DNA of 43,508 nt from Stramenopiles sp. TOSAG23-6 (lineage: Eukaryota). This document shows positions 5,701 to 43,508 of the stretch, piece by piece (position 1 is the stretch's first letter; every line of letters starts with the position of its first letter). The DNA is taken from positions 1 through 43,508 of the forward strand of contig LT635931.1 in assembly GCA_900128565.1 (NCBI GenBank), in the 5' to 3' direction. Below the pieces are notes generated by a model. It was not told the origin of the DNA. It saw only the letters and a list, made by a program, of their open reading frames with translations, and did not search any database. The translations under genes and the position numbers were made by a program.

Positions 5701-8700
5701 CATCCAAAATACTCTGGGCACGATTACCATTGCAGATACCAGTCTGTATATCAATATCAGAATAACGCTGCGATTCGAGGACTGCTTTAGCTGCAGGAGA
5801 TAATCTTTGGACATACCCAGGTTCCTTTTCAAATGGAATCAAAGGGTAATTATGCTTCGAGTTGTGGATTGCATCGTTAGGAAGCANCACAAATCCAAGT
5901 TTTTCTCCAGTATTGGTTATCTCGCCACAGGGCTGAAAGGGAAGAAGTTTGAACTGAGAAGACATATATATCGGTTCTGAATCGATTGAATATATCGGCG
6001 AAATGTGTATGGTCTTCAGCAAACAACGACGCTGAAAGTTATAACACAGGAAACTTATGCCATCCTGGATCGGGCGAAGTATGAAAACTTCTTCACCAGT
6101 TGTGTGCAACTTATTGATACCAGGCGTAATAGCACTATATTCACTTTCTGTTAAATCATCTCTTGACGTTCCATTTGGTAGGATCTTTGCTTTTGGCGTA
6201 ATATGGGCAATTGCAATTGTACCAGCTGGGACCATTTGACGCGCGATTATTGAAGGCTTTGGAGGATGTCCATATGCCAATGCATATGCTGAATTACCGC
6301 TTGAATCAATAGGAAAGATATTATGATCATCTCTCGCTTTAAGTAGTATTTCAGGTGCTAAATTCAACGGAATATCTTTATCTAAACATTGAACACGCAC
6401 AGATTTGAATGACACTCCAATAGAATTTTCGACAGGACCTTGGCCAGAACTATTGTAAGGACCATTATCCAGCAGCGCGACACCTTTAGAATGACACTTA
6501 CTCCGGTTCGAGTGTTTCAAACCCTCTTTACAGGAGTCGAAACAGATGAACTTTGGGGGAATTTTTCTGCCGAAACGATTCATATTTATCATGATTGTTT
6601 CGTCTATTACCCGCTGCGTACAAACTTCAGCTTCATGCTTAGATTTCATAAGATAAATGAACCAATATTTCGTTGCAGGACACACGGCATGAAACGAGTA
6701 TATTTCGCCACGTAAACTCGGGACTCGAAAAGGTCCAGCAAGATCACAATAGATGCCAAATACACCAAGGATGATCTCTGAGATTAGTTTCGAATTATAT
6801 AAGGTACGGTTAAACGAATTATGAACACGCGATTTCTTTGCACTTTTGCCTTTACCACATGCATTACACACAAAAGATAACATATCTTCTTTTGAAAACT
6901 TATATTTCTTGATACCAAAGTTTTCGTATGCACCTGAATTTTGCAAGCGCAGAAACTTTTCAACACCAGGATGACCAAGCTGCTTATGAGCCAATGCTGC
7001 CTGTTCGCTTTTCGTCATAACGGACTTCTTTCTGTCTGTTAATGGCAAACCGGATCTACGCATTTTGTCGCCTTTCATAAATTGATCAGAAGGATTTATC
7101 TTCTTTGATTTCATGAAACGAGATGACATAACTGGATAAGCTTCAAGCAAATGTTCATTATCATCATTGACAAGATCCAAAATAATAGTTTCAAACAAGT
7201 ATACTGCTACATCTTCTGGTGACGCATCACATTTTACTTCATTTATTGGAACTACATCTGGGATATCTTTTCTACACAAACGAACTTTTGATGTTTCATC
7301 AAGCAAATTGATTTCATCATTCAGAATATATATTCCACGTTTGGGGCAAGCTTTACCAATAATTACAGAATCTTCAATACTCGAAGCTGCTTTTGGCATT
7401 ACTGATAAATATTCATCAACAACGAATTTGCAGTCGAGTTGCTCTCTTATTCTATTTGCAGACAGCAGAAATAGTTTTGAAGGAAGTTCTGGTGAATACA
7501 GAACATCATTGTATCCATGTACCGTTTTGCCAATCAATTTGATTGGGACCGGCACATTTGATATGCCCAGTACTGCTGGGGGTCCACCAGATCTTATCCA
7601 ACATGGGTCGGAAGGTTTAGGAGGACGGAGCGATGATTCAATGAAAAGCTCACGATTACCAGTAATACTCTCAGCCGCACAAGTGTCAAATAGAACTTTC
7701 GGTGGAGCATCTGGTTGCACCTGATATATCTCAATAATTCTTGAAATATCATATAATTGGGCGCTAAAGGTATTGATGAAATTCCCTGATGCATAGTACA
7801 TGAAATTCTCCGCAAGCTTTTGAATCTTTTCATCAGAAACTGACGAAGTTGGAGGATCCGTGACAATCATCTTTGCTGTACCATCATTAAAATCTGCCGC
7901 AAAGGCTACAGATTTATGAGCTATTGGCTTGTTCCCTGTACGAGGACATGCCAAAGTTTCTCTAATTTCCTTGTACGATGGGAATGAAACACACAAGAAA
8001 GGACATTTGTCCTTTCCATATGGACAACGAATTTGCTCAACACAAAATGGACATTTGTCCCCTTTATTCTTCTTCTCCTCCCAATCTGGATTGAGACGAT
8101 TCAGAATGCACATGGAAGTTAAATGATGCTTTTGACCGCAAATATCGCATTTATTGCTTGATTTGACATTAGGGCAATCTCTTGGAGATTTATTTTTATG
8201 CGTTTTACCACAACGATAGCACTCACCATTTTTCAACGGAACTGTGATTTCACGAAGGACTTTGATAAACTTTGACGTATTTTCAACATTGTTACCACGT
8301 CTAAGTTCATTCGAACGATGAGTCGCAAGTGTATTATTATTCTTTGAATTGGAGTTCTTCTTAGAAGATCCAGACTTAGAATTTTGCATGTCTTTTACCT
8401 GTTTGCTGAGAGAACCAATTTGAGCTTTATAGGCTTCAATTTGTTCACTCGCAGGATTTGGAGCATACAATGGAAGACGACTTGCAATCGCTTTTCCAAA
8501 CATCGATGACATTGTGTCAGATGACCAGGAGTTATATTTCCTAGAAATAACCTGGATTTCATGAATTACGTACGAAAGATGCATCAATGGAAATTGACGC
8601 TTGACCATACAGGAATCTTCGTAGTCACTTTGCTTCAACGCTAAGATGACGGGAAGAATTCGTGGCGCAGTTATACCATTGAGGTATGCAATCATTATTA

Positions 8701-10483
8701 CGGATGCTGGAGTATTTCCTGGAAGGGAAAAATTCAACAGTGGACGAGCTGGTTTTGATTCCAGTGAGTCCAAGTTGATACAATCCAATTCACGATCAGG
8801 TGCATCTGGATTCATTATATTAAGATATAAAGAATAAGATCTACCTGATGCAACCCGACTCATAATGATCGCAAATAATTCAGCACTTGGGGTTTTATCC
8901 ATTTCAACAGAAGGCATAATCTTTTCTGTGACCAAATATGGAATACGATTTCTGAGAAACTCATGCGCATGGTGAGGTATGGGGGATGTATATCCCTTTA
9001 CCTCTGACTCATCAACTTGTAGAAAGGCTGCAGCTAGTTGTTTCCGAATAGTTCCAGGACCACAAGATACACGTCTGGCATTATCAAGATAAACTTTCTT
9101 GGTATCACCATTCGCAGTGGAAAAATTTACAGGTAGATGAAGGCTGTTCGTTAGTTGATCTTTCTTAATCAGCCTATCTAGATTTAGTAATTTATCATAG
9201 TCTACTTTTTGTAAATGACCACTAGCGAAAAACAAATCCAATTCATCACAGAGACGTTTATACCTCTGAGCTTGGCAAGTTAGACGTTCATTAGAGTACA
9301 AATCGAGAAATCTTGTCGTATATCGCAACAAAGATTCTTTATCTTTCTGTTTGATTTGAGTTAATCTTGTTAAAGATTTCGAGTGAGCAAAACCGCATTG
9401 CTGTTCTGCCCAGTTGAGAATTGTCGTCAAGATTTCATATGGCGACATCTTCTGTTGGATTGCTGGATCAATCGGCTTGAAGATTCTTTTCTCAATACTT
9501 GCTTCTATGCGTTCCGGGCATCTTAGCANATTTATTAACGCTTTTACAACCGTTCTCTGATGGTTATAATTCTGAGTATATTCGTCAGAAATACGAACCA
9601 GAGATTTAATTTGATTTCTGCGTGCAGAAACCATTTGTGCGTTTGTGACATAGTAGTTGTACGCTTTAAGTGCGTCATTATACTTGTCATATGTGTCATC
9701 TGAATTATTATCTTCTCCAGGAGACGGAATTTGACCTGAGGTACCACCCGACGTTGAGACATCAGCTGAATTATTAACGTCATTCAATGAACTAGTATTA
9801 TCATTTGTTTGACGATCCTCTTTATAATTAGGGTCTATTTTCTTTGCCTTGAGAATTCGCTTGTCCAATCTTTTAATATTTTTCTTTAAAACAATTTGTT
9901 GGTTTTCATATTTGGTAATCGATAAACCTAGATTAGAGAATTCATCCTTCAACAAAGAGATACGATGAGCAAGCCTCTCAATTTCTTGAATTTGAACTGG
10001 AGTACGAACTGCAGCAAGAATTTGAGATAACTTCTTATGTTCATTCTCAGCATCCTGTCCAGCTGTTTTAACGGCTTCCTGTTGGAAATTGAACGACGTT
10101 ATTTCGTCATTTAACTCCTCTATCTTATCTTCAATATCGTCCTTCTTTTGTGTAAGACTGATGATATATATACGAGATTCTTTAATTTCTCGAATTTTCT
10201 CAAACGCTTTTGGATACATGATTTCCTTCGGCTCTTGGACAGGCGTGACTTCTTGAATTTGTGTGTCACGTAACTGTTGAAGATCTTTTGAAAATTGCAT
10301 CTTGTCAGGGTGATCCAGTAATCTTTCTGTGTCATCAAGTAAATCTAAAGGATTAGATAACTTTGTGGCACGATTAGATTTAATTGACAATTTGGCTGCG
10401 GAAGTACGAATACCTCGTAGCCATGGGACTGAATCAGCAGGTCTGACTAAACGTACTATATTAGATTCTCCTCCTTTAGTCAT
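2735..10483 (-). CDS. Gag-Pol polyprotein, Ty1/copia order (2582 aa)
   Basis: Cys/His knuckles (CYRCGKTH..C, CDICGQKHH..C), protease LFDTCA, integrase HHCC (HKQLGH..CNAC) and DDE (CDLAGPF / FDSCKE / PVEN), RT (KWVYKTK..FKARL, LKSCYGCKQS, YVDD), RNase H (YVDANFA, ESELYAL, EDN, DFFTKPL). Two codons contain N. Confidence 0.95.
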   Translation of the reverse strand: MTKGGESNIVRLVRPADSVPWLRGIRTSAAKLSIKSNRATKLSNPLDLLDDTERLLDHPDKMQFSKDLQQLRDTQIQEVTPVQEPKEIMYPKAFEKIREIKESRIYIISLTQKKDDIEDKIEELNDEITSFNFQQEAVKTAGQDAENEHKKLSQILAAVRTPVQIQEIERLAHRISLLKDEFSNLGLSITKYENQQIVLKKNIKRLDKRILKAKKIDPNYKEDRQTNDNTSSLNDVNNSADVSTSGGTSGQIPSPGEDNNSDDTYDKYNDALKAYNYYVTNAQMVSARRNQIKSLVRISDEYTQNYNHQRTVVKALINXLRCPERIEASIEKRIFKPIDPAIQQKMSPYEILTTILNWAEQQCGFAHSKSLTRLTQIKQKDKESLLRYTTRFLDLYSNERLTCQAQRYKRLCDELDLFFASGHLQKVDYDKLLNLDRLIKKDQLTNSLHLPVNFSTANGDTKKVYLDNARRVSCGPGTIRKQLAAAFLQVDESEVKGYTSPIPHHAHEFLRNRIPYLVTEKIMPSVEMDKTPSAELFAIIMSRVASGRSYSLYLNIMNPDAPDRELDCINLDSLESKPARPLLNFSLPGNTPASVIMIAYLNGITAPRILPVILALKQSDYEDSCMVKRQFPLMHLSYVIHEIQVISRKYNSWSSDTMSSMFGKAIASRLPLYAPNPASEQIEAYKAQIGSLSKQVKDMQNSKSGSSKKNSNSKNNNTLATHRSNELRRGNNVENTSKFIKVLREITVPLKNGECYRCGKTHKNKSPRDCPNVKSSNKCDICGQKHHLTSMCILNRLNPDWEEKKNKGDKCPFCVEQIRCPYGKDKCPFLCVSFPSYKEIRETLACPRTGNKPIAHKSVAFAADFNDGTAKMIVTDPPTSSVSDEKIQKLAENFMYYASGNFINTFSAQLYDISRIIEIYQVQPDAPPKVLFDTCAAESITGNRELFIESSLRPPKPSDPCWIRSGGPPAVLGISNVPVPIKLIGKTVHGYNDVLYSPELPSKLFLLSANRIREQLDCKFVVDEYLSVMPKAASSIEDSVIIGKACPKRGIYILNDEINLLDETSKVRLCRKDIPDVVPINEVKCDASPEDVAVYLFETIILDLVNDDNEHLLEAYPVMSSRFMKSKKINPSDQFMKGDKMRRSGLPLTDRKKSVMTKSEQAALAHKQLGHPGVEKFLRLQNSGAYENFGIKKYKFSKEDMLSFVCNACGKGKSAKKSRVHNSFNRTLYNSKLISEIILGVFGIYCDLAGPFRVPSLRGEIYSFHAVCPATKYWFIYLMKSKHEAEVCTQRVIDETIMINMNRFGRKIPPKFICFDSCKEGLKHSNRSKCHSKGVALLDNGPYNSSGQGPVENSIGVSFKSVRVQCLDKDIPLNLAPEILLKARDDHNIFPIDSSGNSAYALAYGHPPKPSIIARQMVPAGTIAIAHITPKAKILPNGTSRDDLTESEYSAITPGINKLHTTGEEVFILRPIQDGISFLCYNFQRRCLLKTIHISPIYSIDSEPIYMSSQFKLLPFQPCGEITNTGEKLGFVXLPNDAIHNSKHNYPLIPFEKEPGYVQRLSPAAKAVLESQRYSDIDIQTGICNGNRAQSILDGHLNGFKSPSTKMHPADSLEIRSLIEPYTNPYNKSDGIVKHPSGLKPKISYYKPIYTDGSTKPKTSTTDMAIISFDHSFEKLLKSSVIIQKWVRRHLAKHSIGQLRRERHPNVQLGSLQPRPDIESRRIKAREGASPEFRDEVRSPVYHATKMAEDKAAKLLLDLLSRKHPNVDQRILLDQIDLMRRTGTFPQVPHDVIKAMDVTYPVSKALSDAISNELDSNSVSQHVNHIDPSTCGGENAESGGVNIDSGGVNVQSNNTSNGDISDDNSNVSNDDISEVETIESDADESETIQPCRRSPRFANSESNRCRRSKRIREKKLLESNLSLLADYHLKDTSIEAFFSANASYTTESDEINHLFMAYSVFNKSPNDDLLDTIDASISEVYQLHLQQAPEQNGIKYEDTQKRKFLDYSKVDLRQHVTPVFERDFNHMPDIERQYWSVAKDDEQKGMGYNGVFKLDYHPESYKRLLGTKWVYKTKFKDDSSIEQFKARLTILGNLQRIDLDYKETFSPVSRFASLRALFAFGAYNNLSKLMEDVSQAFLLPEMDIQLNVKIPRGTGVEVLKELAKDNPEYLDVLNNKEFNASHWSYKLLKSCYGCKQSSMLWHKMLSEWLMSRGWVPTKSDPCIYKLTQNGAVLFCAIYVDDVIVLFDKKDSNIAKEHVRAFGSKFTSTVAYGEEANMFLGITIRTCEDGSWILSQENFINKMITDFEKRMNGKLKESDLPHLPNVRLNKFDKENDVQDNSFCIPFREAVGKLTWLSNTVRPDIAYATLALQQHLVAQTSYHIAALKLVLGYLKRTAKLGLIYGRKCEKVRPFDGGVRLYIGTKGIYVEIYVDANFAGDVNPKKYKSVMGGAVFMFGSLVKWMSRRTAVVCLSSFESELYALTEGARDAMWARDVYHDLTGEMHAPVPVYEDNMAALLNAARECNHRAARHIGVRVAFLREAVKHNVVDVMRVESKDNIGDFFTKPLDKVTFERLRKFFMDFA

Positions 10484-10771
10484 GATTGGCTAAATGGTTA
10501 TGAAGGAGTAAATATTATAGGAAAAACTGTCTCTCAGGAGTTCCTGGTATACAGCTGATGAGAATAGACTCCTAAAAATGGAGATTATCCTCTTAGAACA
10601 AAACTTTGGTGTTTTCGTCAAAACACAAAGTTAATGCCGAAATCCGTGAAAGTAAAGTCACGGAAACGATACGTTTAAAAACGACAGTTACAGAAAATTA
10701 ACAGACCAGTAAGCTAGAATGTTAAGATTAGTCTACTATTATCAATGCACAATGAATGAAAGGGTAGAGAC

Positions 10772-11232: not shown

Positions 11233-13715
11233 ATGGATAGTAATGGCGGCGTGGATGAAGAAGGAGACGTAGTCGATACAATTGAAACAAACCCAGAAAT
11301 TTCTGAAGAAGAAAGTGTACAGAATAAAAATAGTAAGGAAAGGATTGATAGTGAGGTTGATTTCATTGTTAACAATATGGAGTTCGAAGATGCAACGCAG
11401 GAGTTTGACGATACAAATGAGAAAGAAAAAATCCTTTCAGGTATTCGTGATGGTATATTCAAAGCCATTGAGGAATTAAATATGTCGGATCTTGTACAAT
11501 TAACAAATCAAGCCAGAGAGCGAGGAGATGAGGTAATTAATATGGGAGATGAAATTGGTGATACTTCACTTCACCGCGCCGCTGGTTCTGGTTCACTTGA
11601 TATGATTTGTTTTCTTGTATCAGCTGGAGCGGATATGGGTGCCACAAATGCAAATGATGACACACCGCTTCATTATGCTTGCATGTTTGTTCCAGCTGAA
11701 GACGATCAAATGGTTGAACATTTTATGATGGTTGAAGCAATGTTCGCTGCTGGCGCAGCTTCTTATTGGGATTCTAAAAACAAAGAAGGCGAGACTCCAC
11801 AGTCATATGCCACAGACGCATTCCCTCCGAATCTTTATGAGAAGTTAGTCGCCAAGTCTCAAGAACATGCATTTATTGTTACGTATCATGAAGATTGTAT
11901 GCTTAAAGCAAAAAAAAATGTATGTTTTTTTTTTTTCAAATTCGATTTTTTTTTCGTACGAAATTTTGTACCTAACGACTTTTTTTTGAAATATTTTTCC
12001 AAAATACATGGCTTCTCTGGAAGGAAAACTAAAAGATAATTCAGCTTTGCCTTTACCAACAACTGAAAGCAATGCGAAGTTTAATAAGCCAAGGACAATA
12101 GGTCGGTTGCAGTGGCTAAGACGTCAATTAAAGAATTTATATATTACACCAGCTGCATGTATGTTTTATTTTTTTTCAATTTCGAATTTACTTTTCATAC
12201 GAAAATTTGTACCTAACGATATTTTTTTTGAAATATTTTTCCAAAGTACATTATTCAGCGCAATGGATGCAAATAAAGATGGTATGATTTCTTTGCCAGA
12301 GTTTGTGTCTGGCTTGGCAGAGGTTGGAATTTGTGTCAATGATTTCCAGTCTAAGCAACTCTTTATGTACATTTTCATTTTCAATTTCAATTTTTGTTTC
12401 TTCATAGTTTTTTATTTTTCGTGGATAATTTTGTACCGAACAAAAAAAGAAATTTTATCTAAAAATTGTTTTCGCTAATGTTTTGTAACTCAAAAAAAAA
12501 TATTCTTCACAATAAAGTATGATCGACCCGGATCGTGACTCAAAGATTAGTTGGACTGAACTTGAATCCTGTTTATCTCAAAATGTTGAAGAAGATGGTG
12601 CTCGAGAGTTGTTGGCAGATGAATTAGAGAAGAAACAAATTGCAGGTGTAGATGTTGAAGAGGAAGAATTAAAGACAAATTATATGGAAATGCTACATTT
12701 AAATGAAAAGGACCCAGAAGAGGTTGAAGAGAGGCGCGATATACAAAGATCTTCAGCTGTATTTCAAGAGATAAAAGCAGCTATTGAGCAAAACAAAACT
12801 CTTTTTGGTCGACAACTTCGAAGTGGAAAAGATCTTTTTGAGAGTATGGATCAAGATGGTGATGGGCATCTTACATATGAAGAGTTTACGAATGGTTTGA
12901 AACAAATGAATCTAGGTTTGAGCGATGAACAAATAAAGGAAGTAATTAATCAACTTGATGTAGACAAAGATGGTGAAATTGAATTTGAAGAGTTGTTTGA
13001 GGTACTTCAAATAGATGAAGATGATTTTAATCCTGTAAAACAAACTGAAAAACGTATTTTGGAAGTAAAAAAAAAAGTTCAAGAACAGGAGAAAGCCATC
13101 ACTCATTTGTGTGGATCTTTTGCGTTCAACAAAAGTGCGCGCGTAATAGCTTCACATATCGAGAAAAGAAAGAAATTAGAAATTCGAATGACTCGACAGA
13201 GAGCCCGGATTCGTCGTAAGTTTGAAAATCGACGTAGTCAAAGACGCAGTAAATGGTCACAGGTGTTGTCTCGATCTCCATATGGCGTTGATCAACATGC
13301 GGAACATAAGATTATAATGAATGCAAATAAAGAAAGAAATCGGTTAGAAGCAAGATTAAAAAAACGCCGCGAAAAAAAGCGTCTGAAATGTCTCGGTAAA
13401 CTCATTGTTGAAACATTGACAAATGCCGACCAATTAGGCGAAGTTCGAAGGGAAAGTCGCGAATTAGCTTTAGAAGAATCTCGTTTAAAGGCAATGGTAG
13501 ACCTAGAAAAAGCTCGAAGGAGAGGAATGAATAGTAAATACTACCGAGAAAAATTAAGTAGACAAGAAATTCGAGCTCGCATTCAAAGTAAAGAAGCTCA
13601 AAATAACGCTGATAGTCCAGAGATGTTGCTGAAGAATATTAACTTTAACCCCAGTGAAGAGAAGTTATCTGATGAAAATCCTATTACATTCATCGAAAGA
13701 AGTAATGAAGAATAG
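11233..13715 (+). CDS. Ankyrin-repeat, four-EF-hand, coiled-coil protein; exons approx. 11233-11919, 12010-12158, 12252-12366, 12518-13715
   Basis: Ankyrin motifs GDTSLHRAA and DDTPLHYAC; EF loops DANKDGMISLPE, DPDRDSKISWTE, DQDGDGHLTYEE, DVDKDGEIEFEE. The first junction is 1 nt out of frame as sequenced (next to an A9 run), so the one-gene model is uncertain. Confidence 0.65.
11920..12009 (+). other. GT-AT family intron (90 nt)
   Basis: AAT|GTATGTTTT...TTCGTACGAAATTTTGTACCTAAC...CCAAAATACAT|GG; full consensus, but the downstream frame is off by one. Confidence 0.65.
12159..12251 (+). other. GT-AT intron (93 nt)
   Basis: GCAT|GTATGT...TTTGTACCTAAC...CCAAAGTACAT|TA gives PAALFSAMD before the EF loop; the AG 5 nt upstream would frameshift. 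Confidence 0.8.
12367..12517 (+). other. Family-derived intron with GT-AG ends (151 nt)
   Basis: AT|GTACATTTT...TTTTGTACCGAAC...CACAATAAAG|T gives LFIMIDPD, placing Phe at the canonical -4 position of the EF-hand. Confidence 0.7.
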
Positions 13716-13813: not shown

Positions 13814-15072
13814 TTATCCATACCATCCATTGAATGTATTATTTTGAACAATACTGTTTTGCTGCCTTTTGATATTATATGAAGGGTCATCAGTTTTCAG
13901 TTCATATCGGCATAGTGGACAGGTATTTGTTTTATTTAACCATTTCATAATACAACCCGAATGATATATGTGATAGCATGGTAGTCTAGTACATTCTTTA
14001 TCTATAAAATCATCTTGACAAATGTTTTGTACATAAATATTTTTTTTTGTACAATTTTTTTTGTTAAGTACAAAATTTTCATAGAAAAAAAATGTAAGGT
14101 AAAAAACAAATTTAATTTTGAAAAACGTACATTGGACACATCACTTTTTCTTCTTTATTTCGTGTTATGTTGACTGAAATATTAATACTAGTATTAATAT
14201 TAGTTGTAGTACTATTTTTAGGTGCATTTATATCAATTAGGTCTACAGACTCTACACATTTTGTTTCTTGGCATGCTGCGACATTAGGGTTAGGGTTTGA
14301 CAGTAATTTTTGAAGTCTTTTTGAAGCATCTTTTTGAATCATTAAAGCAGGTATTGATGTAGAGGCATTATTTGAATTAGTCATTATATAAGGCCAAACA
14401 GTTTGATTTTGTCCAACAACAACACCAATCGCACCATGTATTGTGAAAAAATATTTTTTTGTAGTAAAATGTTTTTGTTAGGTACAAATTTTGGTACGAA
14501 AAAAAAAAAGTAAAAAAAAATTGAAAACGTACATAACTTTGTAAACGTATAATTTTTTCAACAAATGAACAACCCCCCCTTTCAACGAAAGCTATTACAC
14601 CTCTAATGGTAGAACTATTGATTAATTCAGTTGCAGCATTGAAAGGATTCGCCATAACTATTTTGGGGTATTGTGTTTTACCCAGTGGCCAATCAGGACC
14701 AAACCGAGCAGCTAAACAAGAAATTTCACCAACGATACCTGAAACACTCAGAGATAGCTGTTGCAACCACGGAGATTTTTTATCAACTATAGACCGTTCT
14801 AAAGATGCACACACAGATTTGGACGCTGCGGGTCGGCTGCTAAAGTGATGAAACTCCTCTGTAAAATTCCGGAAAAAATCTAAATCATCTACTGAAGCTG
14901 TTGCTGTACTGTTGGAGACTTCACTATCTCCAGGAAGGACCACCGACAAGTCAGCTCCACAAATTTCACACACTGGGTCACTTGCATAATATCGAACAGA
15001 CTCAAGACAATCTCCACACCATCGAAAATTTGAATTTCTTCTTGCGGGTGGTAAAGGAGGATTTGGTATCAT
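13814..15072 (-). CDS. RING-H2 E3 ubiquitin ligase with N-terminal zinc ribbon and PA domain; exons 15072-14533, 14435-14131, 14021-13814
   Basis: WCGDC..CEICG ribbon; PA motif IAFVERGGCSFVEKIIRLQSY|GAIGVVV; RING CPI|CQDD..LPCYHIYHSGCIMKWL..TCPLCR. Confidence 0.9.
14022..14130 (-). other. GT-AT intron (109 nt)
   Basis: CCA AT|GTACGTTTT...TTTTGTACTTAAC...CAAAACAT|T TGT restores the RING CxxC exactly; no usable AG. Confidence 0.9.
14436..14532 (-). other. GT-AT intron (97 nt)
   Basis: TAT|GTACGTTTT...TTTGTACCTAAC...CACAATACAT|GGT GCG restores frame and the PA-domain GA motif. Confidence 0.9.
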
Positions 15073-15311: not shown

Positions 15312-16188
15312 TTATTTACTAGATGGTCCACCACAGAGAGCCATTACATTAAAATGAAGATTTTTAGGATCTCTCGACATAAAATCGTTTCGGATTATTT
15401 TCGCAGCATCTGAAAGTATGAATTTTGGAAAAATATTTGAAATGTTTTTTCGTTAGGTACAAAATTTCGTACGAAAAAATTCTTCGAATTTAAAAAAAAA
15501 AAAAAACATACATGTCACTGCATTTACCATGAGGAACTGGAAAATCCTGACATCCATCAAATTCTACAAGTATACCATTAATACAGACAAATACAATAAA
15601 ATGAGCATCCACTCTTTCATCTCTGTCAGGGGCTGCTGTTTGAGAAAGTGATTCGTCAGAGGCACTTTCTTCACTTACTTCATGAATTGGTTTTGCATCA
15701 GCCAACAATTGTCCTTTCTGTGAAGGCGACTCCTTCTGGTGCGAATCAATGAAATCATGTAATATTCCTGGAGCTAATTCGAAATTTGGATTATATAAAT
15801 GGTTATTAGAGAGTGCATGTACCATACCAATTGTACCACATGCATTTCCAAAACAAGACAGTTGTTTAACGAAGAAAGTTTTGCTTCCTAAAGTTTTATC
15901 AATGCTTGAGTTATTGCGATACTCAGATCGTCGAGGGCCACTAATATTCTTTGAAGGATACAATAAACACACAGCAACACAAGGTTTGGGCACCATACAG
16001 AGTAGCTCAGGATCTAGTCCGAAAACGTCAACCCACTCGAATGAAGATTGCATACCCATGCGAGTACAAAAGCTGTTTACTAAATCTGGATTGCTTTCAA
16101 GAGGAAGCCATCTCGGATTAGTGCTCTTCATATCATTATTTGAAGATTTGGCTGATGCAACTGCAATATTATCTTTATCACTCTCCAT
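15312..16188 (-). CDS. Ubiquitin C-terminal hydrolase, UCH-L3-like (peptidase C12); exons 16188-15512, 15417-15312
   Basis: WLPLESNP, QLSCFGNACGTIG, HFIVFV..LVEFDG, and spliced C-terminus DAAKII..FMSRDP.NLHFNVMAL. Confidence 0.92.
15418..15511 (-). other. GT-AT intron (94 nt)
   Basis: GAC AT|GTATGTTTT...TTCGTACGAAATTTTGTACCTAAC...CCAAAATTCAT|A CTT restores frame; the next AG, 8 nt downstream, would frameshift. Confidence 0.85.
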
Positions 16189-16354: not shown

Positions 16355-18677
16355 ATGTCATGCAAAGAGGGAATTGAAAAACTTGTAATTCTTGACGCCG
16401 GTGCACAGTATGCCAAGGTAATTGATCGACGTGTTCGCGAACTTGCTGTGCATTCCACAATCTTGCCTCTGGAAACTCCAGCTGACAAGTTGAAAGCTGA
16501 TGGATACAAAGCAATTATTATTTCTGGTGGACCAGAGAGCGTGTACGCAGAAAATGCCCCTAAATACGACCCTGGGCTGTTTGAATTGGGTATACCAATA
16601 TTCGGTATATGTTATGGAATGCAATTATTAAATAAGGTCCATGGAGGTTCTGTATTAAAAAAAAGTGAACGGGAAGATGGTGTTTTCAAAATACACACCA
16701 CTGGAAAATCTTTACTATTTGATAGTTTAGATGTAACTCAGACAGTATTGCTTACGCATGGTGACTCGGTATCAATGGTTGCTCCAGGTTTTCGTTGTGT
16801 GGGGAAATCGTCCAGCGGGATTGTGTCTGCTATAGACTCTTTTGAAAAAAAAATGTATGGCGTTCAATTTCACCCGGAAGTAGATTTGACTGTTCATGGC
16901 AAAGAAATGTTTTCTAATTTTTTATTCAAAGTTGCTGGATTTTCAGGTAATTTCACAATGGTTTCTAGAAAAGATGCAGCAATAAAATTAATCAGAGAAA
17001 CTGTAGGTGATGCCTCTGTTCTAACTCTTGTGAGTGGAGGTGTTGATTCTACAGTTTGTACCGCTTTGCTTCGTGAAGCTTTACCACACGAAAAAATATT
17101 TGCATTACATTTAGATTCTGGATTTATGCGGAAAAATGAAAGTTCTAATGTAAAACTGGCATTGGAAGCAATAGGCGTTAATTTAAAGGTGGTTGATGCT
17201 ACTGAAACATTTGCTAATGCTACAACTGAAATTCGAGGAAAGAAAACGAAACGTCTCTGTGAAACCATGTACGTTTTCAAAATTTCAAAATCAAATTTTT
17301 TTTTTTTCGTACCAAAATTTGTACCTAACAAAAAAAATCAAATTTTTGATTTTTTTTCACAATACATTGACCCGGAAGCAAAACGTAAAATTATTGGTGA
17401 TACTTTTATGACAATTAGTGATGTGGAAGCACGAAGATTTGGTTTAGACCCTAAAAAATGTTTTCTAGCACAAGGAACATTACGTCCAGACTTAATCGAA
17501 TCTGCGTCGAAAATTGCTTCTGGTTCTGGAAATGCACATTGCATTAAAACGCATCACAATGACACACAGTTGGTACGTGCTCTTCGCGAGCAAGGTAGAA
17601 TTATTGAGCCACTAAAAGATTATCATAAGGATGAGGTAAGAGCTTTGGGAATGGATTTAGGTTTATCTGAGTCTTTAGTATGGCGTCAACCTTTCCCTGG
17701 CCCTGTACGTTTTTCGTAATGAATTTCAAGTATATGTTTTTGTTTTTATACAAAATTTTATACCTAACAAAAAAAATGTACTAAAAAAAAAATATATTTT
17801 TTCATAGAACATGGACTAGCTATTAGAATAATTTGTGCCGATAAACCCTTCCTTCCTGCTATTCAAGACGATACCAATGGTCCTATAAAGATTGCAAAAA
17901 AGTTGCAGAAAGTTGTGGAAACTGTCTGTTCTCGTTTTAGCACAAGTCAAACATTTACTGGTAATAATGTATATTTTATTTTTTTCAATTTCGAATTTCG
18001 AATTTATTTTTTTTCGTACGAAATTTTATACCTAACAAATTTTATGAAAAAAAATATTTTTCACAATACATACAGAAAATAAAATAAAGAGACAAAAGAC
18101 ATTGCCATCATCTGTTACCGATGTTCAAGCGATTCTATTACCTTGTAGATCTGTTGGGGTTCAAGGAGATTGTCGTTCCTATAAGTCACTTTGTGCTCTC
18201 AGTTGGTCTGGTAAGAGTTCAATTAATTGGAAACTTTTACTTGAAATTGCAAGAGAAATTCCTAAATTGATACACCATGTAAACCGAGTAGTTTTTCTAT
18301 TTGGAGATTCAATGATGAATGGGGTGTCTTCAACAATAACTCCAACACGTCTGGAAGAACCTGTTATTAATATGCTTCGTGAGGCAGATGCAATCGTGAA
18401 TGAGTTGCTATTGAAGCACAAACTGACAAGAAAATTAAGTCAAGTGCCAGTCATTTTATTTCCAGCGGATTTTGGGCTCCCAGGTAAAAGAAGTATTGCC
18501 ATTCGAACATTTATTACTAGAGATTTTATGACTGGGTTGCCAGCGCAGCCAGGAAAAGACATTCAGATTGCTATTATTGAAGAAATGGCTCGTCGAATAT
18601 TGACTGAGGTTGAAGGCATTGGTCGTGTAACCTATGATCTTACTTCAAAACCTCCCGCAACAACAGAGTGGGAATAA
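16355..18677 (+). CDS. GMPS: GMP synthase (glutamine-hydrolysing); exons 16355-17268, 17368-17704, 17813-17968, 18072-18677
   Basis: ILDAGAQY, GICYGMQ, QFHPEV, SGGVDS, PEAKRKIIGDTF, QGTLRPDLIES, IKTHHN, QPFPGP|GLAIR, SVGVQGD.RSY, YDLTSKPPATTEWE. Confidence 0.96.
17269..17367 (+). other. GT-AT intron (99 nt, in frame and stop-free)
   Basis: ACC AT|GTACGTTTT...TTTGTACCTAAC...CACAATACAT|T GAC CCG gives LCETIDPEAKRK and removes an F/K/N-rich insert; the intron contains no AG at all. Confidence 0.88.
17705..17812 (+). other. GT-AT intron (108 nt)
   Basis: CCT|GTACGTTTT...TTTTATACCTAAC...CATAGAACAT|GGA restores the invariant PFPGPGLAIR; the TAG 5 nt upstream would frameshift. Confidence 0.92.
17969..18071 (+). 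other. GT-AT intron (103 nt); a canonical alternative 17961-18075 is also in frame
   Basis: AAT|GTATATTTT...TTCGTACGAAATTTTATACCTAAC...CACAATACAT|ACA matches the family consensus. Confidence 0.7.
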
Positions 18678-19502: not shown

Positions 19503-20374
19503 TTACTTTTTGATCTTACGGAGGTAAAAAGCAAGTTCAGGTCCTTCAAGAATGTATCCATCAGCACGTCCAGACTGTCCTGGACGAGATGAGATGCAAG
19601 CCAAAAGGCGACCATTGTTGAATTGATCAGCAAGGTTTTCATCAATTTCACGAGTTTTGCAATTCTTTGCTTGACGTCTAAGAACCTTGTTAGATTTTTT
19701 CTTGTCGGCTTCATCCTCGCCCTGTAGTGTAAAATGAGTATAGTAGTGGTATTGATGGGGCCGACACCATCAATTTATCAATGAGTAAAACGAATCAAAA
19801 AACAAAAAGTAATAGTATTGAGGTGAAAAAGAGGGGGGGGATAATTAGTAGAACCAAGATAAGTGCTACAGTCGACTTTCAAGGGTTTGACTTGAAATGG
19901 CTGTACACGTAAAATATCATGATGTAACAAAATGATATACTAAAGCTCTAATATACAATACATTGGATAATTAATACGTACATCTTTCTTCTTAAGTCCA
20001 GCCTTTTTGTTGAGCTCGATCCCGTAGTGGGTTTTGTACCAACTTCTGTAAGGTGCACTGTCAACTTGGACGATGCAGTTCTTTACAAGAGTCTTGGTAC
20101 GGACAAGCTCATTGTTAGAAGCATTGTAGACAACATTGAGAATACGAGCTTTACGGGTGCAGACTTCGGATCCCCAGGAAAAGTTACCGGTCTCAAGACG
20201 AAGAGCACGGAATTTCTTGTTTCCACCACGGGTGCGGACAGTGTGAACACGCTTAGCACCAATACGAGTATTAGCAGCTGGGCGTCCAAGCTCAAACTTC
20301 CTCTTCTTTACATGAATAACACGTTTACCACCAGTGTTACGGCGTTTGTGGCGTGAGTCGCGAGAGATACCCAT
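19503..20374 (-). CDS. RPS8: 40S ribosomal protein S8 (eS8); exons 20374-19982, 19721-19503
   Basis: [36 protein letters not shown]; exon 2 has [20 protein letters not shown]. Confidence 0.97.
19722..19981 (-). other. Canonical GT-AG intron (260 nt)
   Basis: GAT|GTACGT...TACTCAT..ACACTACAG|GGC, phase 0; lacks the TTTTGTACCTAAC motif. Confidence 0.9.
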
Positions 20375-21697: not shown

Positions 21698-22671
21698 ATG
21701 GAAGAAGACTTGGTTAGCCGGGATTTATTCAAAGTTGGAAAAAGTGCTATAGATTTATGTGCTTCCGTTGAACGTATTCAAAGAGGCCTTTTTCTTCCTT
21801 TCTGGAATCATGTCGCACGTGTTGTACTTCCTGTAAAAATTCGTGGTTTCCCCTCAAAATTTATTGCAGCTGAGCCAAACAATACAACAACTGGACATCC
21901 GGTGTATTTAATTGAGGGTTGTAGTCTAGTTGCAGTATTTTTATTGAAAGCTCGTGATCACCAGAGGCATTCACAATATACTTGTCCTATCGCTGGACCA
22001 ACTCAGCATGGATTTCGAGTGAAGTTTGATCCTGTCGGGGGGTTCTTGACATATCATAGTGATGATCCTCGTTTTGCAGAAAAACATATAGTCTTGTGTA
22101 TATTTCCACAAAATTATTGGCAAAGTGGAGACGTTGTATCTGAAATGCGTCGCTCTGGTATTAACTCCGCATCAAGTCCGAATTGGGGTACGTTTTCATC
22201 ATAAATTTATTTTTTTCATACCAAATCCAAAAAGGTTTTATACCTAACAAATTTCACTTTTTTGCAATATTTTCTCAAAACACATGTCCCATTCTAGATG
22301 ACTTTAGTGCTGTACAGGCGAGACTTCACCGTTTACAGGAGGAAGTTGTACCCTCTTTAAAATATTGGTTATTTCAACCTCATCAATTAACTCATGCTAT
22401 ACCTACACTTCTTACAAGCCGTATTCTTGTTGAAATTGAGAAAGCAGATGACTCAATTGCCCGTTCAGCCAATTGGGGCGTATTTAAAGCCATGGCGAAT
22501 AATTTTATAAAGGATTCTCTTAATTCTTCATCGCTGTCAGATAGTTCAGATAATGTTGAAAATTTTAATTCGAATGGTGATTCTAAACTTCCATCCCTTC
22601 AGAAAATCACAGGACACTACAATGCGATGTGTCAAAATATTTTTGAAGATTATAAAGAAAAATGCAAATAG
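21698..22671 (+). CDS. Probable Mediator subunit MED8-like protein; exons 21698-22187, 22286-22671
   Basis: Spliced PNWGPILDDFSAVQARL..L..WLFQP..AIPTLLTSRILVEIE resembles the MED8 core (W..IL.QFS...V.P...LP.LL.SK..PE.E) from memory. Confidence 0.55.
22188..22285 (+). other. GT-AT intron (98 nt)
   Basis: TGG G|GTACGTTTT...TTTTATACCTAAC...CAAAACACAT|GT CCC joins two ORFs in frame. Confidence 0.8.
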
Positions 22672-22894: not shown

Positions 22895-24933
22895 AGGATC
22901 CCAAAGAATTTCAAAACCTCTCAGAAAAGGAATATATTGTGAAAAAATATTTTGTTTTGGTTTACAAAAATTCATTAGGTACAAAATTTTCTATAAAAAA
23001 AATTAAAATTTCAAAATTGAAAACGTACACACCAGATCTGGACATTCCGCTTGACTGCTTCATTTCCGCTGTTTCAATTTCTTTCCTTAATAAATCGTCG
23101 TCATCAATTGTATTAAAAACATCTTCTAATCCCTCTATATTCTCTTTTGTTTCCGAGTGTTGAGGCAAAGCTTCAACAATTTCGTCATTTTTATCTGTTA
23201 ATCCGTCTATATTCTCTTTTGTTTCCGAGTGTTGAGGCCAAGCTTCAACAATTTCGTCACTTTTATTTCTCAGAGCAATGGTTTGGTCAACTGTTAGATA
23301 TTTTGCAGCTGCTCTTGCCGCCTTAATAGCTATCCCAATATTACCATTACTACTATTCTGCAAGATATCCGAATCAAGTATTGGAGCTATTGGATCTATA
23401 GCACAATGTACTAAGTCTTCAGTCATATTGGGCATCAAATCAGCTGCAACAGCTGGTGATGAATTTACTTCAATTAATGATACTTGAAAATCAGGTTCGG
23501 CACTTACCATGAGATCAAATCCAAATAAATGAAAACTGGAATAGGACACAAATTCAGCATTTTCCATCATATTTCTTGCTGCAAGTAGTGTATGCACTAC
23601 AATAGCCTTAATTTGAGGATATATTTTTGTATAAAAACTATTTGTTTTGCCATGTGTAGCAATCATCCAATTATCAAAATCAGCCCACCACATTTCGTTT
23701 GTAGGTTCATGTATTGTGAAGAAATATTTCAAAAAAAAAATTTTAATTTGTTAGGTACGAAATTTCGTACGAAAACAAAATTAAATTAGAAATTCATATA
23801 AAACGTACATATTTTCCATATTCTGGATGTTCCTTTGCAATACAGTGATTTGATAAATGTGTAAAACGATCGTTCAAGTTATCTAAGTTATATGGTGTAG
23901 CAGCCGTTCGAAGTACACCTTCACGATAGAGACAAATTCTATAATCGCTTGTCAATAAAACCCATGCATTGTAAAATATATTTAAGTCTGAAATCAGTTA
24001 GGTACAAAATTTCGTACGAAACCAAAAACAAAAAAAATGAAATTGAAATTGAAATGAAGACACACATGCTCTAATGTCAAACTTTCTATTACCAACAACA
24101 GTCAACGGTCGTTCTAAATATTTTTGAACAACAAATCGGTCTTTTAAACCTCGTTCTGTTGAAGCTCTTAATAAGGCTATGATTTCAGAAATATCACTGG
24201 ATAAAACAATGTAAAGTGAAAAATATGTCGCGAAAAAATCGTTAGGTACAGAATGTACTATGAAAAATATAAAAATACAAAAATAAAACTGAAATGATTA
24301 ATGATTAATGAAAATGTACATGTCATCACCACAACCGCCGGCGCTAGGTTTCACAATCCAAATATTCTTTTTATCACTATTCTGGGATTCTATATTGAAT
24401 CTATCGCGTAAGTCTGATAACTCCTTTTCATTTGGATGCTCAGAATTATAAACTATAGCAAAAGGCATTATTTTTGATATATCATACCCTTCATCAAGAC
24501 AATAATCACGAAGTGTTATCGTTTGTTGAGCTTTATCACAAATTGTACGCCAGCCACGGCAAAAATTGACAAGCATTTTGGATCCCCCGTCACCATTACG
24601 TGATCGGACACCGCCTAATACTTTAAAATCGAATCCTTTTCCACACCAACCACCAATTAAAAGATCCAGTCCGCCAATGCATTCTTTATCCTCCTCTTCA
24701 CGCCAACCACCACGATCACGAAGATAAATTGCAACACTGCGATAGATTGATATCGTATGTTTGTACCAGTAATAAGGCCTTAATGATAGCTTCTTATCTA
24801 CCATTGCGGTAAGTGTTTCAGATTTTTTTACTCTTTCGGCGGCCTGCTTCTCAGAAATAGCTAACATGTGAGCTTTCCAATAGGCCATTTCCTCCTCTGG
24901 AGTCGAAAAGGTTGCAGGAATCTCTTTGTCCAT
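22844..24933 (-). CDS. TTL: Tubulin-tyrosine ligase (TTL/TTLL family); exons 24933-24320, 24208-24066, 23963-23809, 23708-23029, 22931-22844
   Basis: WIVKPSAGGCGDDI, VVQKYLERPL..RKFDIRAWVL, LYREGVLRTA, HLSNHCI..YGKYEPTNEM, FHLFGFDLM, LIEVNSSPA; closest in my recollection to TTL proper. Confidence 0.88.
22932..23028 (-). other. GT-AT intron (97 nt)
   Basis: GT|GTACGTTTT...TTTTGTACCTAAT...CACAATATAT|T CCT opens a last exon containing GFEILW. Confidence 0.72.
23127..23266 (-). repeat. 72-bp in-frame tandem duplication within TTL
   Basis: DEIVEAWPQHSETKENIDGL / DEIVEALPQHSETKENIEGL. Confidence 0.9.
23709..23808 (-). other. GT-AT intron (100 nt)
   Basis: TAT|GTACGTTTT...TTCGTACGAAATTTCGTACCTAAC...CACAATACAT|GAA gives YGKYEPTNEM. 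Confidence 0.9.
23964..24065 (-). other. GT-AT intron (102 nt)
   Basis: GCA T|GTGTGT...TTCGTACGAAATTTTGTACCTAAC...TACAATGCAT|GG gives KFDIRAWVL. Confidence 0.9.
24209..24319 (-). other. GT-AT intron (111 nt)
   Basis: GAC AT|GTACATTTT...TTCTGTACCTAAC...CACTTTACAT|T GTT gives GCGDDIVL. Confidence 0.85.
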
Positions 24934-41400: not shown

Positions 41401-43508
41401 GACTTCACCTGTCCAATTTATATCTCCTACTCCTCGCCATCGAATATCAATAGATCCACCAGAGCTACGAGCATTTGCAACGCGCACTGTTGCTTCACAT
41501 TTTGTAATTTCATTACCATCTGTATCAATATCATATACACGCAATGAGACTTCTGGACGCCGCAATCGACTCAATGATAATTTCGCTGTTTCATTTGGCC
41601 ATGATGGTGACCAACTCTTTAGTATTTTAGATGTTTCTACCGCTTTGGAACATGGTAATGGTGTTGTAAACCCCTTTGTAGCTCGTGCCATTTTCTGTTC
41701 CCAGGGCTCGCCTTCTTCACCAGCAACAAAACGCACAAAAGTCATGCGATCATCCACATTATTAGGTCCATCAAGATTAGTTACTTCATTGATAGTCATA
41801 TGTATTGATGTCGTTTTTGATTGCTTCATTTGATTGCCACTTTCAACCTTTGTGATTATCGCATCTACTAAATTATCTGAACGAGTTTTGTTTAACATTG
41901 TTTGTTCACGCGAAGCAAATGCTCGTTTAAACATTTTGTATGCCTGTCGACGTCTTATGACATTCTGTATTATCGTTGCTGCATTTGTTTGAGAATTACC
42001 AAGTGATATGACAGAAATTGCATTTTTCAAAGCAATATCTGTGGGTCTACTAGAAAAAGTAATAATTCTACGCTGTTTTGCACTTGACGATACAATTCTT
42101 TTAATGTCTGAAAAAGGCAATTCATCAAGGCTATTTCCAGATATGAGCATAAATGAGTTTTCCTTTGAAAGTGTAGGGTCACATTTGATTGAAGTTATAT
42201 ACATCCCAGCTTCGACTCCTTGAGATTCTAATGGACCAGGCATTCCATTCGAATTAAGTGTAAATGAAGCAATTTTTGCCCCAATGCCACCAAAGCCTTG
42301 TTCCATTTCGCAAAATAAGGACCCAGGATTAACTTTAACAACTATTGTTCGTCGCCTTATGCGCCCTAATTCTTCAAGCGTTATTTTTTTATCTCCTTGA
42401 ATGAGAGGGCGTTCCCATGAAATTAGCAGCGAGCCAGCCATTTTACCTGCGAGCGTGGCCATGGGAATACTGACAATACCATTAGAAGTACGCGTATTTG
42501 CTACCTCGAGCACACCATGGCACAGAATCTTTTCTGATACATTATCAAATACATCTTCTACACCACGCTCAATTATACAAAAGGTAATTTCCGGATTAAC
42601 TAAACTATTAATAGTGATCCATTTGGAAGTACCCCATATTTGATTCGAAGCTTTTGGGCGAGTAGACCAAGATGCTTCATGAGTGTACATCGGAGAGTCT
42701 CTAATATGTGTGTTTTGTTTAGTTCCAAGTCTTTTATATTTAGTTTCCCAAGTTTCACCTATTTCTCCTGATCTTACTCTAATAAATATTTTACCCTTAG
42801 TTGACCTTTTTGGTGATGAAATCTCAACAGACTTCAAAGCAGTGATTTTTATATCTGAACCTAATACCATTGGTATGTGTGTTCTATTATCTCTACCACC
42901 GAGAGACACATCATGACTGTATTCTTTTGAATGCTGTTGTGCAAGCCATTTTCGTACCGATTTTTGCAGTATTTTACATGCGTTCTTGCGTCTATTTCCC
43001 TTCAAAATTTTCAACACTTCAACTTTTATAGCTGCTTCCGATGGTCGATTACTAAATGTTAGACACCTAGTTAATTTCTGTTTAACTTTGAGTATTAAAA
43101 TAACATCATCATACATGGCATCTCCAACATCGGTGTCATCAATATCTATGAGATACATGTATGGTGAAACAATATTTCAAAAAGTTGTTTTTTTTTGTTA
43201 AAATACAAAATTTTGTAGAAAACAAAATTTAGATGAAAATATCCATTGCAAAACGTACATGTTTGGAAGTATACCAGATTTTTCAAGTGGCCCTGGTCGA
43301 CCATCAACGAGTTTGAAATAAACAAGTCTTACACCAACTCCGCCAAACCCCGGAGCAAATGCAGCGCCAATTGGCCCAGGCTCGCAGACAACTTTAACTT
43401 TTTTACGATTTACCACTGATTTAATACGCGATTTTTGTGCTTGGCCCATCACCCGCTCCCAATGTATTTTAACAAGACCAGACTTTTGTTTTTGGTGCTG
43501 AGAGAGGA
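32485..43508 (-). CDS. Giant (>3600 aa) scaffold with repeated C2-like/PDZ-like/IQ modules, IQ array, three SH3, PDZ, coiled coil and EF-hand; 5'-partial; exons >43508-43259 and 43156-32485
   Basis: PGxLG PDZ-like starts, many IQxxxRG motifs, SH3 motifs (Y.A...DE..L..G....DGWWEG...G.FP.N) three times, EF loop DTDNTGLISSDQ. The upstream exon is open to the window edge. Confidence 0.88.
38140..38520 (-). repeat. 69-bp tandem array encoding 23-aa IQ motifs (about 6 units)
   Basis: AATKLQAHQRGKVQRRKTLQKHK repeated with high DNA identity. Confidence 0.92.
43157..43258 (-). other. GT-AT intron (102 nt)
   Basis: AAC AT|GTACGTTTT...TTTTGTATTTTAAC...CACCATACAT|G TAT gives GILPNMYL, matching the protein's own repeats GVLPGMYM and GVEVGMYL. 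Confidence 0.88.

What the first reader, a model, noticed from the sequence alone, without database searches (positions are those of the whole stretch)
17308..17367. Extended branch-point-like motif TTTTGTACCTAAC plus a second 3' motif may replace AG recognition
Seen: every GT-AT intron has GTACCTAAC or a close variant (ATACCTAAC, GTACTTAAC, GTACCTAAT, GTATTTTAAC). The putative branch A lies about 34-45 nt from the 3' end in the copies I measured, followed by AATATTTTT-C-(8-9 nt). Established: the U2 site is TACTAAC; the U12 site is TCCTTAAC, 10-20 nt from the end and paired with an RTATCCT donor, which is absent here. Inference: TACCTAAC is one C longer than the U2 consensus, which could predict a variant U2-like snRNA (GUAGGUA-type pairing), with the acceptor measured from the T-tract rather than found by AG scanning.
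Basis: partly seen in the sequence, partly recalled or inferred. Interest (0 to 1): 0.7.

Follow-up and report, generated by a model that had tools for sequence, protein, structure and literature searches.

The report
Mobile AT-ending introns, matching U1 RNA
A marine protist carries thousands of copies of one small mobile intron that appears to end in AT instead of the usual AG; the conserved motif in it is probably an ordinary branch site inherited with the copies, and it is the intron-start-reading U1 RNA, not U2, that has changed to fit them.

Summary
The motif is real: 8,338 genome-wide hits against 17 for the reversed control. It lies in a family of roughly 100-nt GT-AT introns in a MAST-3-like stramenopile. 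The predicted variant U2 was not found: the only U2 has canonical GUAGUA, and no second U2, U12 or GUAGGUA guide turned up. The long consensus is best explained by shared ancestry. Copies at unrelated loci reach 97% identity, and the last two intron bases copy the two exon bases before the donor (a 2-nt target-site duplication), as in introners. The acceptor idea holds better. An end placed from the 3' block keeps the reading frame in 111 of 123 introns. Fixed branch distance (51-56 of 123) and nearest-AG choice (44-50 of 123) fail. The only U1 found differs from consensus at three 5' positions, all complementary to the CAT|GTAYGTTT donor. Prp18 and U2AF35 were not found in this fragmented assembly. 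No RNA or lariat evidence was obtained. The scan has reported this intron family before on other pieces of this genome; the notes shown to me did not mention U1.

The parts
17269..17367 (+). Family intron 1 of GMP synthase, GT...AT, 99 nt (holds the finding)
   Evidence: removal gives ...CETIDPEAKRK, co-linear with homologues; homology score alone does not fix this junction
17321..17329 (+). GTACCTAAC, putative branch-site motif; candidate branch A at 17328, 39 nt from the intron end
   Evidence: branch function inferred, no lariat data
17266..17277 (+). Donor region CAT|GTACGTTTT, fully complementary to the 5' end of the genome's U1 snRNA
17346..17367 (+). 3' block (T-tract, CACAATAC, then AT, the duplicated target dinucleotide)
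16355..18677 (+). GMP synthase host gene, 670 aa after removal of three family introns
17705..17812 (+). Family intron 2 of GMP synthase; only the GT-AT cut (or its two slide-equivalents) restores the conserved PGPGLA
   Evidence: score 1053 against 995 for the best GT-AG and 1017 for the CT-AC shift
17969..18071 (+). Family intron 3 of GMP synthase (variable region; frame-restoring, not fixed by homology)
11920..12009 (+). Family intron, 97% identical to a copy on another contig
12159..12251 (+). Family intron GT-AT
22188..22285 (+). Family intron GT-AT after exon GGG; the register shifted by 2 nt would create a stop
14022..14130 (-). Family intron with GTACTTAAC; removal restores a RING-finger-like CPIC
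   Evidence: RING motif recognised from general knowledge
14436..14532 (-). Family intron GT-AT
15418..15511 (-). Family intron GT-AT
22932..23028 (-). Family intron GT-AT with GTACCTAAT
23709..23808 (-). Family intron GT-AT
43157..43258 (-). Family intron GT-AT with the degenerate GTATTTTAAC
19722..19981 (-). Non-family GT-AG intron in RPS8 (260 nt): donor GAT|GTACGT fits the variant U1; no TACCTAAC
   Evidence: boundaries from frame and sequence only

Best explanation
The motif is the branch-site part of a ~100-nt introner, a non-autonomous transposon-like element present in at least 8,000 copies. The element runs GTAYGTTTT...ATAC and duplicates two target bases, usually AT, on insertion. 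The second copy of the target forms the intron's last two bases, so most introns read GT...AT. The major spliceosome removes them. U1, changed at positions 2, 5 and 9, pairs with CAT|GTAYGTTT, and U6 ACAGAGA fits +4..+6. Canonical U2 pairs with the CUAAC core and bulges the second A. The 3' end is set by the element's own conserved tail (T-tract plus AATAC-NT), with AT preferred but not required, and U(-1) probably docks on G(+1) as proposed for HAU sites in yeast lacking Prp18. The bases around CUAAC are long and fixed mainly because all copies share an ancestor. Shown: motif, family, duplication signature, frame restoration, snRNA sequences. Inferred: splicing itself, branch nucleotide, mobility mechanism, second-step chemistry.
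For: Family: nearest-neighbour identity median 0.87, maximum 0.97 among 155 introns; shuffled pairs median 0.61 against 0.74 for real pairs; 5' and 3' subtypes are linked. Duplication: 13 of 23 non-AT ends repeat the two bases before the donor (shuffle mean 1.2, maximum 6 in 5,000). AT preferred at the intron end: the exon copy alone differs in 28 cases, the intron-end copy alone in 8 (p=0.001). Frame: 120 of 127 open against 23-31 at +/-1 or 2; 22 of 23 non-AT ends open; sense 143 against antisense 19 of 157. Register: GPG conserved in 9 of 9 homologues shown; the 2-nt-shifted register gives stops in 2 of the discordant cases. U1: mean 9.3 Watson-Crick pairs of 11 and -9.7 kcal/mol, against 7.0 and -1.8 for the consensus 5' end; better in 156 of 156 donors. 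U2, U4, U5, U6 canonical. Prp8 alpha-finger region matches human Prp8 except for two residues. Slu7 and a U2AF65-like gene are present. The weakest positions of the extended motif are the CpG sites (62-79%); the unseeded core -6..0 is 96-99%.
Against: No RNA junction or lariat evidence was obtained. The frame test fixes the end only modulo 3 (shifts of 3 or 6 also pass: 112-121 of 127). For 44-50 of 123 introns the nearest AG also keeps the frame, so single introns can have an AG alternative. Only one junction (GMP synthase intron 2) is fixed to the base by alignment scoring; introns 1 and 3 are not. No autonomous transposase was searched for, and the terminal inverted repeat is only about 4 nt. 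Ancestry and selection on the extended motif were not separated. The snRNA searches scored only the best candidates (47 of 1,185 for U2; 41 of 253 for U1; 42 of 1,595 for U12) in a 6,236-contig assembly. The U1 scores 54.1 bits, below the Rfam gathering score of 69.5 (E 1e-11).
Confidence: 0.7

Rival explanations
1. One reading: a variant U2-like snRNA (GUAGGUA-type) pairs with the extended TACCTAAC and defines a separate splicing class.
For: The motif is near-invariant (core 96-99%) and TACTAAC itself occurs in only 1 of 157 introns. The assembly is fragmented, so a gene can be missing.
Against: Only canonical U2 found; no snRNA match at 24 of the 33 guide-pattern hits that were scanned; shared ancestry explains the uniformity; variants such as GTACTTAAC, GTATTTTAAC and GTACGTAAC occur in frame-restoring copies.
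Confidence: 0.07
2. The extended motif is under its own selection as a binding site for a protein (SF1/BBP, the divergent U2AF65, or a transposase), on top of U2 pairing.
For: Positions -14..0 are 83-99% conserved in 138 copies (upstream positions were used as the anchor, so they are biased upward). The 3' arm of the palindrome stays fixed while the 5' arm varies. The U2AF65-like protein is only about 24-26% identical to its two canonical-type hits and has an RRM1-like second domain.
Against: Non-CpG positions upstream are just as conserved. The same U2AF65 layout occurs in 4 unnamed relatives whose intron type is unknown. This reading is compatible with the best explanation rather than exclusive of it.
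Confidence: 0.3
3. The introns are cut at other boundaries: an AT-AC register shifted by 2 nt, or nearby AG acceptors.
For: In 106 of 157 introns both ends carry AT, so mRNA cannot tell GT-AT from AT-AC. An in-frame AG exists for about 40%. A public model of this gene (P0004) uses GT-AG.
Against: The shifted register turns conserved GPG into GHG and makes stops in 2 cases. U1 and U6 pairing place +1 at G. Nearest-AG choice opens only 44-50 of 123 frames against 120 of 127. P0004's GT-AG junction inserts VQH into an invariant motif.
Confidence: 0.1
4. Minor (U12-type) spliceosome, which tolerates GT-AT ends.
For: GT-AT is a known functional U12 combination (PMC1557818 passages). The donor has a T-run at +6..+9.
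Against: No RTATCCT donor; no U12 match; branch distance 31-55 nt; the donor matches U1 and U6. U11, U4atac and U6atac were not searched.
Confidence: 0.04
5. Structure-guided, non-spliceosomal excision as in euglenid nonconventional introns, through pairing of the two ends.
For: The ends are self-complementary (ATGTA/TACAT) and pair in 4 of 6 folds printed.
Against: No covariation between the ends (+4 C faces A in 63 of about 157); whole-intron fold z median -1.0; branch-to-end hairpin z median -0.5 (22 of 135 below -2); a U1 matched to the donor argues for the spliceosome.
Confidence: 0.05

Closest known systems
Non-canonical, transposon-derived U2 introns of Fritillaria borealis and F. pellucida (PMC13326754: abstract, section 21, first part of section 26; PMC11282704 passages)
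   Same: Mass use of 3' AT (34% and 44% of introns there), a repeated triplet before the donor and at the intron end, major spliceosome, no U12 system.
   Different: There donors are mostly AG and diverse, the two U1 versions have identical 5' ends that pair poorly with them, and U2AF is duplicated. Here the donor stays GT, one family dominates the sample, U1's 5' sequence is changed, and no U2AF35 was found.
Introners of Micromonas and other aquatic eukaryotes (PMC11282704 and PMC12130899 passages)
   Same: Thousands of similar introns, target-site duplication that supplies one splice site, short inverted ends, sense orientation in exons.
   Different: The duplicated target supplies AT (or TT, GT, CT) instead of AG. 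PMC12130899's curation names only AG and AC as expected 3' sites; its main text has no hit for GT-AT or MAST (supplements not seen).
Co-evolved U1 snRNA of Entamoeba, Mastigamoeba and Physarum (bioRxiv 10.1101/2022.06.08.495308: abstract, section 22)
   Same: U1 5' end altered to pair with an atypical donor.
   Different: As far as the parts read go, those changes face intron positions; here one change (position 9, C to A) faces exon position -1, and it goes with AT at both junction repeats and non-AG acceptors.
HAU 3' splice sites in S. cerevisiae lacking Prp18 (PMC10711555 passages)
   Same: CAU/UAU acceptors after a poly(U) tract used by a U2 spliceosome; proposed U(-1) with G(+1) pairing.
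   Different: There a low-level error in a mutant; here apparently the main route. Loss of Prp18 here is not established.
Strong branch consensus and fixed branch-AG distance in Yarrowia, Trichomonas, Giardia (PMC2483917 passages)
   Same: Highly uniform branch motif.
   Different: Those are intron-poor with 2-4 nt fixed spacing and AG; here spacing is 31-55 nt and the uniformity comes from copying.

Membership tests
U2-type (major) spliceosomal intron | GT donor pairing with U1 and with U6 ACAGAGA | tested here: met
   GT in 126 of 138; +5 G 96%, +6 T 98%; U1 duplex; U6 canonical
U2-type (major) spliceosomal intron | Branch site able to pair with U2 GUAGUA | tested here: inconclusive
   CTAAC in 134 of 157, YTAAY in 150 of 157; only about 4 base pairs by inspection; branch nucleotide not mapped
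U2-type (major) spliceosomal intron | 3' terminal AG | tested here: not met
   AG in 4 of 138, AT in 115 of 138
U2-type (major) spliceosomal intron | Removal as a lariat in RNA | not testable with these tools
   no RNA reads were laid
U12-type intron | RTATCCTT donor and TCCTTAAC branch 10-20 nt from the end | tested here: not met
   donor GTAYGTTTT, distance 31-55 nt
U12-type intron | Minor snRNAs in the genome | tested here: inconclusive
   U12 not found at E<=5 in a fragmented assembly; U11, U4atac, U6atac not searched
Introner | Many sequence-similar introns at unrelated loci | tested here: met
   8,338 motif hits; up to 97% identity
Introner | Target-site duplication | tested here: met
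   2-nt direct repeat covaries: 13 of 23 against 1.2 expected; no signal at -3 to -6
Introner | Terminal inverted repeats | tested here: inconclusive
   GTA/TAC in most copies, fourth position only partly, none beyond
Introner | Autonomous partner or presence/absence polymorphism | not tested
   no transposase search; orthologous DNA of relatives not obtained
Variant-U2 splicing class (proposed) | U2-like RNA with GUAGGUA | tested here: not met
Euglenid-type nonconventional intron | Conserved, covarying structure joining the ends | tested here: not met

The most novel reading that the evidence does not exclude
A major spliceosome that has given up AG recognition altogether: U2AF35 and Prp18 are really lost, a divergent U2AF65 reads the element's tail, and the U1 change at position 9 lets U1 read AU at both junction repeats (cf. 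the U1-3' site suppression of Reich et al. 1992, seen only as a cited title). A single transposon family and one snRNA would then have rewritten the AG|GT...AG rule to AT|GT...AT across a genome.
Probability: 0.2. Interest if true: 0.88.

Novelty: new variant of a known kind. Interest (0 to 1): 0.62.

Why it matters
The 3' AG is among the most conserved splicing signals. Mass use of AT ends was, in the papers I saw, described for Fritillaria tunicates, with different donors and without a U1 sequence change. A protist with GT-AT introners and a complementary U1 gives a second, independent case and a natural test of how AG recognition can be relaxed and how snRNAs co-evolve with invading introns. 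It also means AG-only gene models for this lineage are wrong at many junctions, as one public model shows. The specific claim of a new U2 would have mattered more, but it is not supported.

Tried and rejected
RNA: 21 runs were listed, all with a small word share (0.05-0.14); no reads were laid, so they are no evidence. Hairpin between branch point and 3' end as a distance-shortening device: striking in the finding's own copy, but median z -0.5 over 135 introns and effective length became more variable (sd 8.0 against 4.9); rejected as a general rule. Palindrome around the branch motif as an RNA hairpin: no compensatory changes. Fixed ruler from the branch point: 51-56 of 123 frames open. Scanning to the first HAT: 38 of 123; to the first CAT: 81 of 123. 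Family motif in viral contigs: 0 hits. U2-U1 tandem pattern in metagenome contigs: 2 hits, neither an snRNA locus, so U1 in relatives is unknown. De novo search for non-family GT-AG introns: 112 interruptions, 58 family-like, 54 others that look mostly intergenic; not usable, so the share of ordinary introns is unknown. Rfam on the window: 0 hits. Prp18: 0 candidates and the control rang nowhere. U2AF35: none of 17 CCCH matches looked like it by recalled motif. Both absences are weak. Literature searches for a published GT-AT class in this lineage found none; two single-cell genomics papers had no hit for 'splic' or 'non-canonical' in their main text (passages only, supplements not seen). The library lacks most subscription journals.

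Full report
Observation. The finding lies in a 99-nt insert (17269-17367, +) in a GMP synthase gene. GTACCTAAC is at 17321-17329 and the candidate branch A is 39 nt from the end. This copy has three T's before the motif and no AATATTTTT block, so the title's consensus fits other copies better. In the window 12 of 13 ACCTAAC hits are in family context, and 12 copies could be delimited, all GT-AT and frame-restoring. Genome-wide the 12-mer occurs 8,338 times against 17 for the reversed control. Among 157 introns found by their ends only, in about 750 kb of fetched DNA, 138 carry TACCTAAY and 150 YTAAY. The one non-family GT-AG intron I could examine (RPS8) lacks the motif.

Organism. The nearest GMP synthase relatives include a public model whose source label indicates a MAST-3 stramenopile (P0004). 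It matches this gene's residues in the stretches printed but joins exons at GT-AG, which inserts VQH into the invariant PGPGLA. I take the lineage as MAST-3-like and go no further.

Boundaries. From 194 branch-motif seeds, 138 had both a donor and an acceptor block above threshold (56 dropped). Consensus: AT|GTAYGTTTT, then TTTTTCGTACGAAATTTTGTACCTAAC, then GAAATATTTTTYCAMAATACAT|G. GT-AT made up 107 of 138; lengths 82-142 nt; branch-to-end 31-55 nt with peaks near 34 and 43. Of these, 127 were far enough from neighbours to test: removal left an open frame in 120, against 23-31 at shifts of 1 or 2, 19 unspliced, and 44-50 of 123 at the nearest AG. Shifts of 3 or 6 also pass, so this fixes the end only modulo 3. 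Because AT usually flanks both ends, GT-AT and a 2-nt-shifted AT-AC are equivalent in mRNA for 106 of 157 introns. Where the flanks differ, the GT register gives the conserved GPG in GMP synthase and avoids stops in two cases. No RNA reads were laid, so splicing is inferred.

How the 3' end is placed. With the anchor on the 3' block and blind to the last 8 nt, 111 of 123 frames open and 98 land on AT. A fixed distance from the branch point opens 51-56, scanning to the first HAT 38, to the first CAT 81. In 41 of 140 introns an AG lies at least 8 nt after the branch point and before the end (26 with YAG; 12 with an in-frame one). In three copies with small indels the frame-restoring end follows the terminal word, not the count from the T-tract. 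This shows what must be removed for intact proteins, not how the spliceosome finds it.

Why the motif is so uniform. Introns at unrelated loci are up to 97% identical (nearest-neighbour median 87%, n=155), their 5' linkers are more alike than shuffles, and 5' and 3' subtypes are linked. When an intron ends in TT, GT, CT, AG or AC, the exon often ends in the same two bases: 13 of 23, against 1.2 expected. That is a 2-nt target-site duplication, the mark of an introner. AT is still preferred at the intron end (28 against 8 one-sided differences, p=0.001), and 22 of 23 non-AT ends keep the frame. The least conserved positions of the extended motif are CpG sites, so ancestry accounts for its length; extra selection on it is possible and untested.

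snRNAs. A compact cluster U5-U2-U1-U4 (L001, identical over 664 nt in L002) and a U6 (L033) were found. U2 has canonical GUAGUA. No second U2, no U12 and no snRNA at the predicted guide pattern (33 hits, 25 viewed, 24 scanned) were found; these searches score only top candidates in a fragmented assembly. The only U1 found (E 1e-11, 54.1 bits, below gathering) differs from the Rfam consensus at positions 2, 5 and 9. Each change complements the donor: +7 T, +4 C or T, and exon -1 T. It pairs better than the consensus end with 156 of 156 donors (mean -9.7 against -1.8 kcal/mol). The non-family RPS8 donor fits it too, which suggests one spliceosome for both types.

Proteins. The Prp8 region holding the alpha finger matches human Prp8 closely (its role in 3' site docking is recalled). 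Slu7 is present. A divergent U2AF65-like gene is present with an RRM1-like second domain, shared with four unnamed relatives. Prp18 gave no candidate and none of 17 CCCH matches resembled U2AF35 by recalled motif. These absences are leads only. Yeast lacking Prp18 uses HAU acceptors after poly(U) tracts, with a proposed U(-1) to G(+1) pair (PMC10711555 passages), which offers a chemistry for CAT and TAT ends.

Comparison. Closest are the Fritillaria non-canonical introns (PMC13326754: abstract, section 21, first part of section 26), introners (passages of PMC11282704 and PMC12130899) and the co-evolved U1 of Entamoeba (bioRxiv 10.1101/2022.06.08.495308: abstract and section 22). Rare GT-AT introns are known in both U2 and U12 classes (PMC1557818 passages). 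Six searches found no paper on a GT-AT class in this lineage; supplements were not seen and the library is incomplete. Earlier notes of this scan describe the same family on other pieces of the genome; the lines shown did not mention U1, and a word search for an altered U1 returned two notes from other genomes. One note says the introns are really spliced; I could not test that.

Verdict. Most likely this is a GT-AT introner family handled by a major spliceosome with a changed U1 (0.7). New variant of a known kind; interest 0.62.

Noticed in passing
L001:9-645 (G000:C1146; same in L002): U5, U2, U1 and U4 genes lie head to tail on one strand with gaps of only 2, 23 and 5 nt by the Rfam match ends, which suggests one precursor transcript. 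One paper search listed no obvious precedent.
   Followed up: partly
L147:664-2628 (-): U2AF65-like protein whose second RRM resembles RRM1; the same layout is in P0121-P0124.
   Followed up: partly
L101 (Prp8, human-equivalent residues about 1440-1452): A short run of substitutions in an otherwise near-identical region; meaning unknown.
   Followed up: no
window 2735-10489 (-): A 2,584-aa open frame that looks like a Ty1/copia retrotransposon polyprotein by eye; it has no family introns.
   Followed up: no
window 12367-12515 (+), approximate: A degenerate family copy with GTACCGAAC that seems to end in AG, inside an EF-hand gene.
   Followed up: no
window 24247, 24003 and 29 (-): Three more motif hits in family-like copies that the scripts did not delimit; one has no clear GT donor and one runs off the window end.
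   Followed up: no
L003:1407-1503, L053:9033-9096, L032 (-) 1274-1370: Tandem or internally duplicated family copies, some directly back to back.
   Followed up: no
family consensus: CpG positions show CA/TG variants in 16-59% of copies, including donor +4, which hints at methylation of these elements.
   Followed up: no
G000:C13 and C14; C1580, C1588-C1590: Near-duplicate contigs occur, so the genome-wide count of 8,338 includes some repeats of the same locus.
   Followed up: no
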